A DNA stretch of 64,000 bases from Candidatus Scatosoma sp. (GTDB lineage Bacteria; Bacillota; Clostridia; Christensenellales; Borkfalkiaceae): assembly GCA_045594025.1 (NCBI GenBank), contig JAZNXS010000030.1, forward strand, positions 3,230 through 67,229. Reading direction: 5' to 3'. Below, piece after piece: positions 3,324 to 55,736 of the stretch (positions are counted from its first letter, which is position 1; each line of letters begins with the position of its first letter). The notes under the pieces are model-generated. The model saw nothing but the letters and a program-made list of their open reading frames with translations. It did no database searches and was not told where the DNA came from. The position numbers were made by a program, and so were the translations under genes.

Positions 3324-4046
3324 TTAGTCGAATAACCGAATCAATTCCCCTAAATTTTCGAATTTGGATTCGGTCTTTTCGGAAAGATACGCTTTCACGA
3401 GGCGCAGAGCGCGTTTCTTGCCCCCGTCCAAAGCGGATTCCGAATAGGTTAAACCCGCGCATTTGCGCAAGGTATGATAGGTGGAGAGACTTGCTCGCTC
3501 TCCGTTGACGCACCGATCGAAGGTAGTAAATCTCCCGTCTGCGAAATCAAACCAAAGCCGTTCGCCGATACCCCCGTCGCATTCCTCTAAAAAACCGAGG
3601 TCGATGGGATAGCCGCTTTCCCGAAGGGCAATCAGCGCAAAACCAAGCACAGCCTCAGCGGGATCGTCTTCGGATAACGCAAGGGATTTTAAACATTCGA
3701 TAAGCCCGATAAACAGGCTTTCATAGCTTTCGTTTTCATAGAGAATTGCAAGGCAGATCTCCGCCGCCGCGCAAGCCGCATAAAAACGTACGATGTCGTA
3801 GCGAAGGGAGAAAAAACTTTCGTGCAAGTACGCGCTTGTCACCGTGTACCTGCCCCCCTTCTCCGCGAGAACGTATTCTGCAAAACAGAAAGGCTGCGCC
3901 GAAAACGCCAGCTTTGCTTTCGGTTTCTTTACACCGCGTGCGCCTGCAGTGATCCTACCCAAAGTCGGGGAAAAAAGCGTAAGCAATTTATCGTTATCTT
4001 TATAGTCGATTGATTGTAAAACGATTGCTTCCGTTTTGATCTCCAT
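3324..4046 (-). CDS. recO: DNA repair protein RecO
   Basis: 240-aa ORF with a typical RecO N-terminal OB-fold sequence (MEIKTEAIVLQSIDYKDNDKLLTLFSP...GRITAGARGVKKPKAKL). It lies downstream of era, as in Bacillus. Confidence 0.9.
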   Translation of the reverse strand: MEIKTEAIVLQSIDYKDNDKLLTLFSPTLGRITAGARGVKKPKAKLAFSAQPFCFAEYVLAEKGGRYTVTSAYLHESFFSLRYDIVRFYAACAAAEICLAILYENESYESLFIGLIECLKSLALSEDDPAEAVLGFALIALRESGYPIDLGFLEECDGGIGERLWFDFADGRFTTFDRCVNGERASLSTYHTLRKCAGLTYSESALDGGKKRALRLVKAYLSEKTESKFENLGELIRLFD

Positions 4047-4062: not shown

Positions 4063-4176
4063 TTACTTTTTTCTCATTAAATCGTAGTACAGCATATAAT
4101 AGCTGATACTACCCGTTTTTTCGAAGAGCTCCCACGCCATTTTAGCGGCGCCGTTTTCTTCCTTTTTGTCGTGCAT
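4063..4176 (-). CDS. yqzL: YqzL-like small protein (37 aa), not in the supplied ORF track
   Basis: Hand translation gives MHDKKEENGAAKMAWELFEKTGSISYYMLYYDLMRKK. An SD GGGAGGG lies just upstream. The W..F..TG.I..Y pattern and the position between era and recO match YqzL of Bacilli. Confidence 0.55.
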   Translation of the reverse strand: MHDKKEENGAAKMAWELFEKTGSISYYMLYYDLMRKK

Positions 4177-4227
4177 AGTTTCGCCCTCCCAACATCAGTT
4201 TGAGACGAGCGAGAGGAAAGTATGCAG

Positions 4228-4400
4228 GGGAATTACCTAACGTATCCTACGGATGTTAATTACGCCTAACAGCGCGTGAATTGGCTAACGCCGTGAATTG
4301 TCCTACGGACGTGAATTGCAACGCAAAGCGTTGCGTTGTGGAAATATTACAATAACGACGGCAAAGCCGTCAATTCACTGAGCGACAGCGAAAATTCACG
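4228..4400 (+). repeat. Hairpin-ladder repeat, GTGAATTG family, copy A
   Basis: GTGAATTG at 4276, 4293 and 4311, with degenerate GGGAATTA at 4228 and GTTAATTA at 4255. These are separated by mini-hairpins (GGCtaacGCC, GTCCtacGGAC, GCAACGCaaaGCGTTGC, GACGGCaaaGCCGTC). Inverted units follow: CAATTCAC at 4371 and AATTCAC at 4393. The core aligns with the reverse complement of 38042-38152. Confidence 0.7.
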
Positions 4401-4452
4401 AAAGCTTTGGTTAACCGAGCCGCGACGAAGTATTGCGCTGCAAATATACGTT

Positions 4453-5340
4453 TTACTCCACGTCGTCGTATCCGTATTCGCGTAAAAGCCCCGGCTTATC
4501 ACGCCAATCCTCTTTCACCTTAACGTAGGTAGTGAGGAAAACCTTTGCGCCCAAGAATTTCTCCATGTCCTGACGGGCAAAGGAAGAAACCTCCTTAATC
4601 GCCTTGCCCTGCTTGCCGATCAAAATGGCTTTGTGGTTGGCTCTCTCGCAAACAATATCGAGATTCACCTCGTACACGCCGTTATCCTGCAAACGGAAGG
4701 TGTTGATGACAATGGCGATCCCATGGGGAATTTCTTTGTCAAATTTTAAAAGAATTTTTTCACGCATGATTTCGGAAATCATAAAGCGTTCGCTCTTATC
4801 CGATACAATATCTTCCGTGAATACTTTCTCCCCCTCGGGCATCTGTTTTGCAAGGAACTCTTTCAGCTGGCGCACGTTCTTCCCCTTACGCGCTGAAACA
4901 GGGAAAACGTCTAAATCGAGCTCCGCATCCGAGAATTTCGCCATATCTAAAGGAATGTTTTCCTTAGGCATAATATCGATCTTCGTATACGCAACCGCCA
5001 TGGGCACGCCGAGCGCTTTGTACTTTCTAATCAGCTCAAAATCCTCGTCCTTTACCCCTTCGTGTCCATCCAAAACAAACAGGATATAATCCACCGCTTT
5101 CGCGCTGGAGTCCGTCGTGCGCATCATCATATCCGTCAAGGCGTTTCTCGCCTTATAGATCCCCGGCGTATCCACGAAAACAATTTGATAATCATCCTCC
5201 GTCAATACCCCCAAAATCCGATCCCTCGTCGTCTGCGGTTTGGGAGAAACAATCGACACCTTCTCCCCTACCATGACGTTAATGAGCGTACTTTTTCCTG
5301 CATTTGCTCTGCCGATAACCGCTACGTATCCGCTTCTCAT
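4453..5340 (-). CDS. era: GTPase Era
   Basis: G1 GRANAGKST, G3 DTPG, G4 TKID, and a C-terminal KH domain. Confidence 0.95.
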   Translation of the reverse strand: MRSGYVAVIGRANAGKSTLINVMVGEKVSIVSPKPQTTRDRILGVLTEDDYQIVFVDTPGIYKARNALTDMMMRTTDSSAKAVDYILFVLDGHEGVKDEDFELIRKYKALGVPMAVAYTKIDIMPKENIPLDMAKFSDAELDLDVFPVSARKGKNVRQLKEFLAKQMPEGEKVFTEDIVSDKSERFMISEIMREKILLKFDKEIPHGIAIVINTFRLQDNGVYEVNLDIVCERANHKAILIGKQGKAIKEVSSFARQDMEKFLGAKVFLTTYVKVKEDWRDKPGLLREYGYDDVE

Positions 5341-34503: not shown

Positions 34504-34697
34504 AATATTTTACCTTAAGTTTGCGTGAAAGTTACTTTGATAAGTGCGCTATGAGAGCGCAAACCGATACAGTACGAAGCTTAAATGGATAGTTGCAAGC
34601 AGTTCAAGGCGTAGCGAGCATATTGATAGGAGTGTACTAAGCGTACACGACTGAAATACGCGGAGATACAACGCCGAAATGCGCCGCAAATATACAT

Positions 34698-38019: not shown

Positions 38020-38215
38020 GTGAATTGTCCGCCCTGCGGACGTGAATTTTCGCTGTCGCTCAGTGAATTGAAAACTATGTTTTCGTGAATTGACGGCTTT
38101 GCCGTCGTTGTGGCAATAATTCCGAAACGCAACGCACAGCGTTGCAATTCACGCGCTATTAGGCGCAATTCACGCCGTAAGGCAATTCATTTTTTCACAT
38201 AGTGAAAAATTTCAC
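38020..38215 (-). repeat. Hairpin-ladder repeat, GTGAATTG family, copy B (inverted relative to copy A), plus a flanking TTTTTCACATAGTGAAAAA palindrome
   Basis: On the plus strand, GTGAATT(G/T) occurs at 38020, 38042, 38063 and 38085. CAATTCA(C/T) occurs at 38145, 38166 and 38183. Mini-hairpins lie between the units (GTCCGCcctGCGGAC, GACGGCtttGCCGTC, GCAACGCacaGCGTTGC). The palindrome is at 38191-38209. Confidence 0.7.
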
Positions 38216-38218
38216 TTC

Positions 38219-39964: not shown

Positions 39965-40215
39965 CGTTTAAAAAACGCCGTTACGAAAGAGACGAAGAAT
40001 ACTCCGCGGTACCACTCTATTTGATGCAAACGCACCCACTCGCGCCCCAAAAGGCATTCTCTGTAACGGGAGATCCCGTCCGAATCTAATAAGCAATTTC
40101 TTGCCGTTCTCTCGGCGGCTCGGGGAGGAGTATATTCCGTAGCGTTCTATCGACTCGCACCCACCGTCGACTCTCTGCAAAGCAACCCTTACGGATTTTG
40201 TTCCCGTCATAGCCT
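39965..40215 (-). promoter_or_regulatory. T-box riboswitch leader upstream of leuA (probably Leu-specific)
   Basis: The minus strand contains the T-box core AGAGTGGTACCGCGGAG (plus coordinates about 40002-40018). The stem I elements AGAGAG and GGTGGGTGCGA are present. CUC codons lie in the candidate specifier region (GAAUAUACUCCUCC). A U-run follows (CGGCGTTTTTT). Confidence 0.75.
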
Positions 40216-40225
40216 TTTATATAAA

Positions 40226-40354: not shown

Positions 40355-40394
40355 AAAAATCTCCTTTTTCACATAGTGAAAATATCTTTTGTAT

Positions 40395-55552: not shown

Positions 55553-55736
55553 TCATCACGCCATAGGCGTGTATATCATCAAGGCGCAAGCCTTGTATAT
55601 CACCAACACAAAGTGTTGTATATCATCAAGGCGCAGATAGATACACGCTGATGCGTGATGATATACAGCTCCAAAGGAGCTGATGATATCCACCACACTT
55701 CGTGCGGTGATGATATACCAAGTCTGCGACTTGGAT
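55553..55736. repeat. Hairpin-ladder repeat, GTATATCATCA family
   Basis: GTATATCA(T/C)CA occurs at 55571, 55595 and 55618. The inverted TGATGATAT(A/C)C occurs at 55656, 55681 and 55708. Seven perfect mini-hairpins lie between them (CACGCCataGGCGTG, AAGGCgcaaGCCTT, AACACaaaGTGTT, CACGCtgatGCGTG, AGCTCCaaaGGAGCT, CACCaCACttcGTGcGGTG, CCAAGTCtgcGACTTGG). Confidence 0.75.

What the first reader, a model, noticed from the sequence alone, without database searches (positions are those of the whole stretch)
4228..4400. GTGAATTG hairpin-ladder element, copy A, between era and yqzL (antisense to local transcription)
This element shares its design with the tRNA-adjacent one but uses a different unit.
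- **Units:** There are three exact GTGAATTG units spaced 17-18 nt apart, plus two degenerate units upstream.
- **Hairpins and inverted units:** Each unit is followed by a different small perfect hairpin. A centre with two AAA-triloop hairpins follows, and then CAATTCAC and AATTCAC.
- **Homology:** The roughly 90-nt core aligns nearly base for base with the reverse complement of 38042-38152, which carries one extra unit.
- **Significance:** This is a dispersed repeat family with at least two copies in 64 kb.
Basis: seen in the sequence. Interest (0 to 1): 0.65.

Follow-up and report, generated by a model that had tools for sequence, protein, structure and literature searches.

The report
Gut-1-type tagged hairpin-array DNA repeat
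The element between era and yqzL is one of at least 16 copies of a small non-coding repeat built from a constant 7-base tag (GTGAATT) and ever-changing perfect mini-hairpins. It is a tag variant of the unexplained "Gut-1 RNA" motif, and it behaves like a REP-type mobile DNA repeat in the uncultured gut genus Candidatus Scatosoma.

Summary
Window 4228-4399 (copy A) and 38020-38215 (copy B) hold all nine GTGAATTG words of the window.

- **Family size and range.** They belong to a family of about 16 intergenic copies in this 1.74-Mb Candidatus Scatosoma MAG. The family occurs in 12 of 25 sampled species of the genus, in two genera of one other family of the order, and in gut-type metagenome contigs.
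- **Basic unit.** The unit is a "monad": (GTGAATT + perfect G…C-closed hairpin) repeated, ending in GTTGTGG. Two monads placed head to head make the two-armed "ladder".
- **What varies.** Tags are invariant. Stems covary (97.7% paired against 66% in shuffles). Loops drift.
- **Signs of mobility.** The era-yqzL and leuA-ilvB spacers are empty in most sister species. Two loci share 141 identical bases. Module number varies between copies.
- **Closest known thing.** This is Rfam Gut-1 (RF01706), which is [GUGAAAU + hairpin] ×3. Real Gut-1 hits occur in six genomes of this genus, but copies A and B fall below the family threshold.
- **Mobilising enzyme.** No RAYT/Y1 transposase accompanies the family.

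My reading is a REP/BIME-like modular DNA repeat with an unknown mobilising factor, transcribed only passively. It is a new variant of a known but unexplained motif.

The parts
4228..4399 (+). Copy A of the GTGAATT-tagged hairpin array, a dyad. The left arm has 5 tags (2 degenerate), each followed by a hairpin. Then come the core, one hairpin + AATTCAC, and the TGAG module + AATTCAC.
4276..4334 (+). Three exact GTGAATT tags (4276, 4293, 4311), each abutting a perfect G…C-closed hairpin (ggctaacgcc, gtcctacggac, gcaacgcAAAgcgttgc) with no linker bases.
4335..4356 (+). AT-rich quasi-palindromic core GTTGTGGAAATATTACAATAAC. It consists of two GTTRTKG half-cores head to head, the junction of two monads.
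4357..4399 (+). Right arm: hairpin gacggcAAAgccgtc, AATTCAC, the conserved non-hairpin module TGAGCGACAGCGAA, AATTCAC. The TGAG module defines the 'T strand'.
4400..4452 (-). Truncated remnant of an unrelated second repeat family ('family 2'), lying directly after the era stop codon and abutting the ladder.
38020..38215 (-). Copy B, between the leuA stop and the ilvB start. On the minus strand it reads: GTGAAAT cap with palindrome, 3 tag+hairpin modules, core, 4 hairpin/TGAG modules + AATTCAC. Its left arm is a sub-threshold Gut-1 match (38142-38217, 20.3 bits).
4453..5340 (-). era (GTPase + KH_2), the upstream gene of the operon.
4063..4176 (-). yqzL-like small ORF (37 aa), the downstream gene. 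recO follows at 3324-4046.

Best explanation
Copy A is a member of a modular, non-coding DNA repeat family that I call GTGAATT-tagged hairpin arrays. It is a tag variant of the Gut-1-type repeats.

**Construction.**
- The basic unit is a monad: 2-9 modules of [invariant 7-nt tag GTGAATT + a perfect 4-8-bp hairpin closed by G-C, usually with a 3-4-nt loop]. No spacer bases separate tag and hairpin. The monad ends in a GTTGYGG motif.
- In Candidatus Scatosoma two monads sit head to head and share an AT-rich core, which gives the two-armed 'ladder'.

**Behaviour.** The family behaves like REP/BIME or REPIN-type non-autonomous DNA.
- It occupies only intergenic spacers, often inside housekeeping operons.
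- It comes and goes between sister species.
- It exists as near-identical copies at different loci.
- It gains, loses and shuffles modules.

**Most likely mechanism (inferred, not shown).**
- When the DNA is single-stranded, each palindrome snaps into a mini-hairpin. The 7-nt tags remain the only constant, unpaired segments.
- These tags are recognised by a trans-acting factor, not a Y1/RAYT transposase and still unidentified, that copies or moves monads.
- The tags also act as 17-24-nt-spaced direct repeats at which replication slippage and recombination change module number.

**Transcription.** Because the arrays sit inside operons they are co-transcribed. The resulting multi-hairpin RNA (what Rfam calls Gut-1) is probably a by-product that may secondarily buffer mRNA decay.

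**Shown:** the anatomy, hairpin covariation, tag invariance, copy number, distribution, insertion polymorphism, absence of RAYT and the relation to Gut-1.

**Inferred:** single-strand folding in vivo, the trans factor, and any RNA effect.
For: **Copy number and location.** About 16 copies, 2.6 kb or 0.15% of the MAG, and none is spanned by an ORF of 80 aa or more. Examples are def-[E]-fmt, rpoZ-[E]-priA, leuA-[E]-ilvB and era-[E]-yqzL.

**Hairpins are maintained, tags are fixed.**
- 123 of 186 inter-tag segments are end-to-end perfect hairpins, against 0.76% of shuffles. There are 44 distinct stems.
- On 29 distinct 15-nt modules, 97.7% of cells pair, against 65.9±2.5 in shuffles (0/500). The covariation score is 0.833 against 0.196, and slid controls give 29-52%.
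- Stems are 98% Watson-Crick, with only 4 G·T in 415 pairs. Three-nt loops closed by C-G dominate. Both features suit DNA palindromes better than a typical RNA.

**Mobility.**
- The era-yqzL spacer is 42-610 nt in 78 Scatosoma species. It is empty in most. It holds a GTGAATT ladder in 3 of them besides this genome, and sister ladders or another repeat in others.
- The leuA-ilvB spacer is about 0-55 nt in most of 30 species, with ladders in G000, G580 and G005.
- The ends of contigs C24 and C42 share 141 identical bases but have different flanks, and three copies break contigs.

**Patchy range.**
- 12 of 25 genus genomes carry the family.
- 4 of 173 genera of the order matched the tag pattern. 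Three carry true arrays: the own genus plus two genera of family f25. The fourth matched only a tandem repeat. The reversed-pattern control gave 1 hit.
- A sample of the class gave only trivial hits.
- 28 of 80 fetched metagenome loci carry true modules.

**The tag does not depend on a partner arm.** One-armed monads keep the tag, so the tag is not conserved merely to pair with the other arm.

**Relation to Gut-1.**
- The Gut-1 consensus is [GUGAAAU + hairpin] ×3.
- Gut-1 scores above its gathering score in 6 genus genomes, and 46.5 bits at G000 C22, the arm of a hybrid dyad.
- It is the only recurrent sub-threshold Rfam hit on GTGAATT ladders.

**No cognate transposase.** No Y1 transposase is found in a 100%-complete carrier genome. 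The only one in G000 is an ordinary IS200 with its own hairpins.
Against: - No mobilising enzyme, target-site duplication or sharp termini were found. The outer modules simply degenerate.
- Insertion polymorphism was read across species with about 85-94% identical Era, not within a population. Orthologous inheritance with rapid module turnover therefore cannot be separated from repeated insertion.
- Orientation is not random. The TGAG-module strand is the sense strand in 24 of 29 co-directional contexts. Monads elsewhere have the GTGAATT strand in the sense direction in 21 of 28 contexts. Either bias could reflect an RNA function.
- Loops are strongly strand-asymmetric: G…A type on the AATTCAC strand in 59 cases against 5. 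I cannot explain this.
- Weinberg et al. (PMC2864571) rated Gut-1 as certainly an RNA.
- No RNA-seq or same-species reads were available.
Confidence: 0.6

Rival explanations
1. It is a functional structured RNA, either a Gut-1-type sRNA or an intercistronic mRNA element. In this reading the hairpin array is selected because the transcript blocks exoribonucleases, sets differential operon mRNA stability, or presents GUGAAUU/AAUUCAC single strands that titrate an RNA-binding protein.
For: - The elements lie inside co-directional operons and must be transcribed.
- Predicted RNA folds are more stable than shuffles: z = -3.2 for copy A and -5.1 for copy B.
- Stems covary.
- Orientation is biased with respect to genes.
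- Loops are strand-asymmetric.
- The related Gut-1 motif was classed as an RNA by its discoverers.
Against: - Only about 1% of stem pairs are G·U.
- About one in five copies lies in the opposite orientation, copy A among them.
- Module number and order vary freely, and the core can be inverted relative to the arms.
- Copies are absent from the same spacers in most sister species, so no host gene depends on them.
- No promoter or terminator is associated with the elements.
- One-armed and two-armed forms coexist.
Confidence: 0.22
2. It is a double-stranded or cruciform DNA site array. In this reading the repeated tags are binding sites for a DNA-binding protein (nucleoid, gyrase/IHF-like as at BIMEs, or a recombinase with arm-type sites around a core). 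Alternatively the dyad extrudes as a stack of perfect four-way junctions, with GTGAATT pairing AATTCAC and the hairpins as side arms.
For: - Tag-to-tag spacing peaks at 21-22 bp (97 of 186), about two helical turns.
- Arms are inverted around a quasi-palindromic core.
- Minimum-free-energy folds do pair the left tags with the right tags as nested junctions without linker bases.
- Sister families change the tag on both arms together: ATGAATT/AATTCAT, GTGAAGT/ACTTCAC, GCGATAT/ATATCGC.
- The near absence of G·T fits a constraint acting on both strands.
Against: - Spacing ranges from 15 to 31 bp.
- A duplex-binding protein would not need the intervening sequences to be palindromes.
- One-armed monads keep the tag without any partner.
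- Left and right tag numbers are often unequal: 5 against 2 in copy A.
Confidence: 0.1
3. It is a purely mutational by-product. In this reading quasi-palindrome correction and slippage at a few seed sequences generate and homogenise perfect hairpins, with no selection and no mobility.
For: - The palindromes are perfect, with freely drifting loops.
- Module number varies at direct 7-nt repeats.
Against: This cannot explain three observations:
- the same tag across different families of the order and across unrelated GC-rich hairpins in metagenomes;
- identical 141-nt copies at separate loci;
- repeated colonisation of the same spacers.
Confidence: 0.05

Closest known systems
Gut-1 RNA motif (Rfam RF01706; Weinberg et al. 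2010, PMC2864571)
   Same: - The building plan is identical: a 7-nt tag (GUGAAAU) directly followed by a short covarying hairpin, repeated three times in the model.
- Both come from the gut habitat.
- Gut-1 proper occurs in the same genus, as multi-copy monads, dyads and long arrays.
- One G000 element (C22) is a hybrid, with GTGAATT tags on one arm and ATTTCAC tags on the other. The ATTTCAC arm scores 46.5 bits.
   Different: - The tag differs at position 6 (GTGAATT, not GTGAAAT).
- Copies A and B fail the model: copy A gives no hit at E ≤ 10, and copy B scores 20.3 bits against a gathering score of 50.
- Gut-1 was described as a three-hairpin sRNA candidate from metagenome reads with no host. 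Here the full unit is a variable-length monad or dyad that behaves as a dispersed DNA repeat.
REP / BIME / REPIN elements with RAYT (TnpA-REP); 'tagged' palindromic repeats (Di Nocera et al. 2013, PMC3733652; Quentin et al. 2018, PMC6006769)
   Same: - A short unpaired tag sits next to a palindromic hairpin.
- Copies are intergenic and mostly lie between unidirectional or convergent genes.
- The family is multi-copy.
- Units are arranged head-head, tail-tail and head-tail.
- Several families coexist in one genome.
- Some tagged families (CGTC) also lack a dedicated transposase.
   Different: - The tag is GTGAATT, not GT[AG]G or CGTC.
- Stems are 4-8 bp, not 7-20 bp.
- The arrays consist of many different hairpins abutting one another, rather than copies of one REP.
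- There is a terminal GTTGYGG motif.
- The host phylum is Bacillota, which the 2013 survey text does not mention.
- No Y1/RAYT gene is present in a complete carrier genome.
BOX elements of Streptococcus pneumoniae and other modular MITE-like repeats (from my own knowledge)
   Same: - Both are modular intergenic repeats with a variable number of internal modules and a strong predicted secondary structure.
- Both are co-transcribed with neighbouring genes.
   Different: - BOX modules are 45-59 nt and conserved in sequence.
- BOX has no invariant 7-mer punctuating dissimilar mini-hairpins.
- There is no sequence similarity.
The tRNA-adjacent hairpin ladder of the same window (55553-55736)
   Same: - The design is the same: unit + perfect mini-hairpin repeated, a centre, then inverted units.
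   Different: - It uses a different unit (TATATCATCA/TGATGATATA).
- It is single-copy in this genome by my array scan.
- An earlier agent reports that it heads a tRNA-targeting gene cassette. I did not test that.

Membership tests
Gut-1 RNA (RF01706) | Infernal score at or above the curated gathering score (50 bits) | tested here: not met
   Copy A gives no Gut-1 hit at E ≤ 10. The arm of copy B scores 20.3 bits, E 0.09. GTGAATT ladders of relatives score 28.9-33.4 bits. Only the ATTTCAC arm at G000 C22 comes close, at 46.5 bits.
Gut-1 RNA (RF01706) | Three successive short hairpins, each preceded by the conserved heptamer GUGAAAU | tested here: inconclusive
   The architecture is met, but the heptamer is GUGAAUU. 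GTGAAAT appears only as the outer cap tag of copy B.
Gut-1 RNA (RF01706) | Expressed as a free-standing non-coding RNA | not testable with these tools
   No run holding this species was found. The only two holders carry relatives at 85-90% identity.
REP/BIME with RAYT | GTAG/GTGG tetranucleotide 0-2 nt 5' of the stem (definition in PMC6006769) | tested here: not met
   The tag is GTGAATT. Its GTGA lies 3 nt from the stem.
REP/BIME with RAYT | Fully paired basal stem of 7-20 bp, loop of 2-5 nt | tested here: not met
   The stem-length mode is 6 bp, and only 18 of 186 stems are 7 bp or longer. The loop criterion is met.
REP/BIME with RAYT | A cognate RAYT (Y1 HUH transposase) gene, usually flanked by the REPs | tested here: not met
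   PF01797 gives one hit in G000, an IS200 with its own hairpins and no tags. There is none in copy-rich G003, G005, G012 and G014, and none in the 100%-complete carrier G049.
REP/BIME with RAYT | Multi-copy, extragenic, clustered in inverted or tandem orientation | tested here: met
MITE (cut-and-paste miniature transposon) | Defined terminal inverted repeats plus a target-site duplication | tested here: not met
   The arms are inverted, but the ends are ragged (degenerate outer tags, optional cap). No flanking direct repeat is visible in the 16 copies.
CRISPR array | Constant palindromic repeats of 24 nt or more, separated by unique non-palindromic spacers | tested here: not met
   The logic is the reverse: the constant part is a 7-nt non-palindromic tag and the variable parts are palindromes.

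The most novel reading that the evidence does not exclude
The tag-plus-hairpin monad is the substrate of an undiscovered single-strand-DNA enzyme system in gut Clostridia, not a Y1/RAYT transposase. This enzyme recognises the unpaired heptamer between mini-hairpins and copies or shuffles modules. On this reading, Gut-1 and its tag variants (GTGAATT, ATGAATT, GTGAAGT, GCGATAT, TATATCATCA) form a third superfamily of tagged palindromic mobile DNA. Each tag would be matched to its own enzyme specificity. The strong G…A loop bias on one strand would mark the active strand.
Probability: 0.25. Interest if true: 0.8.

Novelty: new variant of a known kind. Interest (0 to 1): 0.55.

Why it matters
Gut-1 has sat in Rfam since 2010 as a 'certain' RNA with no host organism and no function. 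This locus does three things.

- It places the motif family in a named lineage, Candidatus Scatosoma and neighbours.
- It shows that the three-hairpin model is a fragment of a longer modular monad or dyad.
- It shows that the family behaves like a REP-type genomic repeat with several tag variants and no RAYT.

That turns an orphan motif into a testable question: what reads the heptamer tag?

There are practical consequences too. The repeats break MAG assemblies (three contig ends here). They inflate intergenic spacers inside essential operons. They could also serve as strain markers.

Tried and rejected
- **RAYT/IS200 link rejected.** The only Y1 transposase in G000 is a normal IS200 without tags. 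Copy-rich and complete carrier genomes have none.
- **Phage or plasmid origin rejected.** There was no blastn match in PLSDB or INPHARED. Only one held a tag-flanked segment that passed my hairpin test, an A/T-rich near-palindrome.
- **Autonomous element rejected.** I looked for arms flanking a gene. In G000 contig C2 the elements flank def, fmt, priA, rpoZ and ligA, all housekeeping genes. In metagenome loci, neighbouring arrays lie in direct orientation in successive spacers.
- **Tag-tag pairing as the reason for tag conservation weakened.** One-armed monads keep the tag.
- **Transcription versus replication not separable.** Gene strand and GC skew are almost fully confounded here: 85-90% of coding bases lie on one strand and skew is about 0.13.
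- **Read evidence unavailable.** The two runs found hold only relatives at 85-90% identity.
- **Generic hairpin-array detector.** It was too noisy with 4-bp stems and too strict with equal spacers. It served only as a sanity check.
- **First look at monad orientation discarded.** A positional-composition gene caller contradicted it, so I do not rely on the early result.
- **Chance Rfam hits dismissed.** ArcZ, OxyS and snoRNA matches scored 11-17 bits, far below their thresholds.

Full report
**Observation.**
- Two degenerate tags (GGGAATT, GTTAATT) are followed by three exact GTGAATT tags at 4276, 4293 and 4311.
- Each exact tag directly abuts a different perfect hairpin.
- Next comes a 22-nt AT-rich core, GTTGTGGAAATATTACAATAAC (4335-4356), flanked by two AAA-triloop hairpins.
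- Then come AATTCAC (4372), a non-hairpin module TGAGCGACAGCGAA, and a final AATTCAC (4393).

All nine GTGAATTG words of the 64-kb window lie in copy A or in copy B at 38020-38215. The two copies give the longest inverted repeats in the window: 69 nt at 87% and 46 nt at 85%. They align almost base for base, with one extra module in B. Pfam confirms era, a YqzL-like ORF and recO around copy A, and leuA and an ilvB-type gene around copy B.

**Family and host.**
- The window is contig C30 of a 1.74-Mb, 48-contig MAG. Era-based retrieval names its relatives Candidatus Scatosoma, or simply Clostridia bacterium, from ruminant, deer, chicken and human gut.
- nhmmer finds about 16 copies. All are intergenic and total 2.6 kb.
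- Several sit inside housekeeping operons: def-fmt, rpoZ-priA, leuA-ilvB and era-yqzL.
- Three copies terminate contigs. The ends of C24 and C42 share 141 identical bases but have different unique flanks, so very recent copies exist.
- Homologues occur in 12 of 25 species of the genus and in none of 16 other families sampled with the 170-nt query.
- A tag-pattern search of 401 genomes of the order matched the own genus, two genera of one other family (f25) and one further genus. That last genus and the few matches in a 151-genome class sample are only trivial tandem repeats. The reversed-pattern controls gave one hit in each of the two searches.
- 28 of 80 fetched metagenome loci carry genuine modules.
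- Nothing was found in plasmid, phage or IMG/VR collections.

**Grammar.**
- Oriented by the TGAG module (the 'T strand'), G000 copies read as follows:
  - (GTGAATT + hairpin from a small repertoire), 1-5 times;
  - GTGAATT-gcaacgcNNNgcgttgc;
  - the core;
  - gacggcNNNgccgtc-AATTCAC;
  - optionally gaaaacNNNgttttc-AATTCAC;
  - TGAGCGAYAGCGAA-AATTCAC;
  - optionally a last hairpin-AATTCA(C/T).
- Outer modules degenerate, and no target duplication is visible.
- In family f25 and in most metagenome contigs the element is one-armed: (GTGAATT + hairpin), 3-9 times, followed by GTTGYGG….
- The dyad core is therefore two half-cores head to head. Head-head, tail-tail and tandem pairs all occur, as with REP dimers.
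- The core can be inverted relative to the arms between copies of one genome.
- Because monads keep the tag without a partner arm, tag conservation is not explained by tag-tag pairing. This holds even though minimum-free-energy folds of the dyad do pair GUGAAUU with AAUUCAC into nested, linker-free four-way junctions. Fold z-scores are -3.2, -4.0 and -5.1.

**Hairpins.**
- Of 186 inter-tag segments from 38 elements, 123 are end-to-end perfect hairpins, against 0.76% after shuffling. There are 44 distinct stems, and 139 segments start with G and end with C.
- On an ungapped alignment of 29 distinct 15-nt modules, 97.7% of cells pair (shuffles 65.9±2.5, 0/500). Fifty-six cells carry double changes (shuffles 15.3). 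The covariation score is 0.833 against 0.196, and slid registers give 29-52%.
- Stems are 98% Watson-Crick, with 4 G·T and 2 A·C in 415 pairs.
- Loops are mostly 3 nt and are closed by C-G in 130 of 140 cases.
- Loops are strongly strand-asymmetric. They are T…C on the GTGAATT strand, which is G…A (GNA or GNNA) on the AATTCAC strand, in 59 cases against 5 (p ≈ 9e-13).
- From my own knowledge, C-GNA-G is the classic very stable DNA mini-hairpin, and G…A loops are also favoured in RNA. I record this bias as unexplained.

**Mobility.**
- Among 78 Scatosoma species the era-yqzL spacer ranges from 42 to 610 nt.
- The short form is about 42-80 nt. It ends in a conserved gcataaa…caaact…gggagg segment and represents the empty site.
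- Three species besides G000 (L016, L037, L078) carry GTGAATT ladders there.
- Other species carry sister ladders whose tag is changed on both arms: ATGAATT/AATTCAT in L059; GTGAAGT/ACTTCAC in L015, L023, L027 and L028; GCGATAT/ATATCGC in L069.
- Many species carry an unrelated repeat, 'family 2', in the same spacer.
- The leuA-ilvB spacer is about 0-55 nt in most of 30 genus genomes. It holds ladders in G000, G580 and G005, and family 2 in three others.
- These comparisons are between species, so repeated insertion and old insertion with fast turnover cannot be told apart.

**Orientation.**
- With a codon-model gene caller, the T strand is the sense strand in 12 of 14 co-directional contexts in G000 and in 12 of 15 in relatives. 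The total is 24 of 29. Copy A is one of the exceptions.
- Gene strand and GC skew are almost completely confounded in these genomes. Transcription and replication direction therefore cannot be separated.
- For one-armed monads elsewhere, a positional-composition caller gives the GTGAATT strand as sense in 21 of 28 contexts. An earlier cruder estimate pointed the other way and was discarded.
- I conclude only that orientation is biased. No single strand rule emerges yet.

**Comparison with known families.**
- At gathering thresholds Rfam finds nothing at either copy.
- Following an earlier agent's lead, I ran permissive scans. The left arm of copy B matches Gut-1 (RF01706) at 20.3 bits (E 0.09; gathering score 50), while copy A gives no Gut-1 hit.
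- The Gut-1 consensus is [GUGAAAU + hairpin] ×3, the same plan with one tag base different.
- A genome search finds Gut-1 above its threshold in six genomes of this genus and at E ≤ 0.01 in 17 of 41 genomes, 16 of them in the genus. It also scores 46.5 bits in G000 at C22:5790-5867, the ATTTCAC arm of a hybrid dyad whose other arm carries GTGAATT tags.
- These Gut-1 loci are multi-copy monads, dyads and arrays of up to nine modules.
- Gut-1 is the only recurrent sub-threshold hit on GTGAATT ladders of relatives.
- Weinberg et al. (PMC2864571) reported 43 Gut-1 representatives from human gut metagenomes only, with no organism and no function. The library holds no later functional work.
- REP/BIME elements are the closest functional analogue. 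They have a tag plus a palindrome, are intergenic, form HH/TT/HT dimers, and some tagged families lack a transposase (PMC3733652; definition in PMC6006769).
- However, the REP tag rule, the stem-length rule and the RAYT rule were each tested and are not met.

**Verdict.**
- It is a GTGAATT-tag variant of the Gut-1-type tagged hairpin arrays.
- It is best explained as a REP-like modular DNA repeat whose mobilising factor is unknown. A functional-RNA reading remains possible, at roughly one in five.
- It is a new variant of a known but unexplained motif. Its value lies in giving Gut-1 a host, a full-length architecture and a testable mechanism.

Noticed in passing
window 4400-4452; window 34591-34692; about 20 places in the genome: A second dispersed repeat, 'family 2' (…GCGTCGCATTTC…CGGTCACGTAC…CCTTGAACTGCTCGC…, about 110 nt), starts right after stop codons. 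It has about 20 copies in G000. Four of them, plus remnants such as 4400-4452, directly abut GTGAATT ladders, far more than the roughly 0.2 expected by chance. It also fills the era-yqzL and leuA-ilvB spacers in many sister species.
   Followed up: partly
loci L013-L092 (era-yqzL spacers of 78 Scatosoma species): This one spacer is a hot spot. Its length runs from 42 to 610 nt, and it holds at least four ladder tag variants (GTGAATT, ATGAATT, GTGAAGT, GCGATAT) and other repeats. L069 carries two different ladder families in a single 5.9-kb locus.
   Followed up: partly
window about 4177-4227, and the last ~50 nt before yqzL in all relatives: A conserved segment (gcataaa … C-rich run … caaact … GGGAGG) lies just upstream of yqzL. 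The C-rich run could pair with the Shine-Dalgarno sequence, which would make it a possible translational hairpin.
   Followed up: no
window 38192-38208 and 40366-40382; G000 C39:2170, C46:13601: The palindrome TTTTCAC-N3-GTGAAAA occurs four times in the genome. Three copies are the outer 'cap' module of ladder copies, next to a GTGAAAT tag. The fourth stands alone upstream of the leuA T-box leader.
   Followed up: partly
G003, G008, G014, G015, G017, G018 (loci L421-L426): Rfam Gut-1 (RF01706), published as 'human gut metagenome only, no sequenced organism', scores above its gathering threshold in six Candidatus Scatosoma genomes. This gives the motif a host lineage.
   Followed up: partly
all parsed modules (140 distinct hairpins from G000, relatives and metagenome loci): Hairpin loops are closed by C-G in 93% of cases. 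They are G…A-type (GNA/GNNA) on the AATTCAC strand 59 times, against 5 on the other strand. The 5' stem arms are C/A-rich on both strands. I have no explanation.
   Followed up: partly
G000 contig ends: C24 end, C42 end, C30 start (3.2 kb upstream of the window): Three contigs end inside near-identical ladder copies. The repeat family is one cause of fragmentation in this MAG.
   Followed up: yes
window 55553-55736: The tRNA-adjacent ladder uses the unit TATATCATCA/TGATGATATA with the same unit-plus-hairpin logic. My array scan found it only once in this genome.
   Followed up: partly
G000 C39:11038-11490 (outside the window): A single ordinary IS200 (152-aa Y1 transposase) is flanked by its own ACCCCGCG…CGCGGGGT hairpins. 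It is unrelated to the ladder tags.
   Followed up: yes
window 39985-40219 (minus strand): A T-box leader (100.5 bits) lies upstream of leuA, so copy B lies inside a T-box-controlled leuA-ilvB transcript.
   Followed up: no
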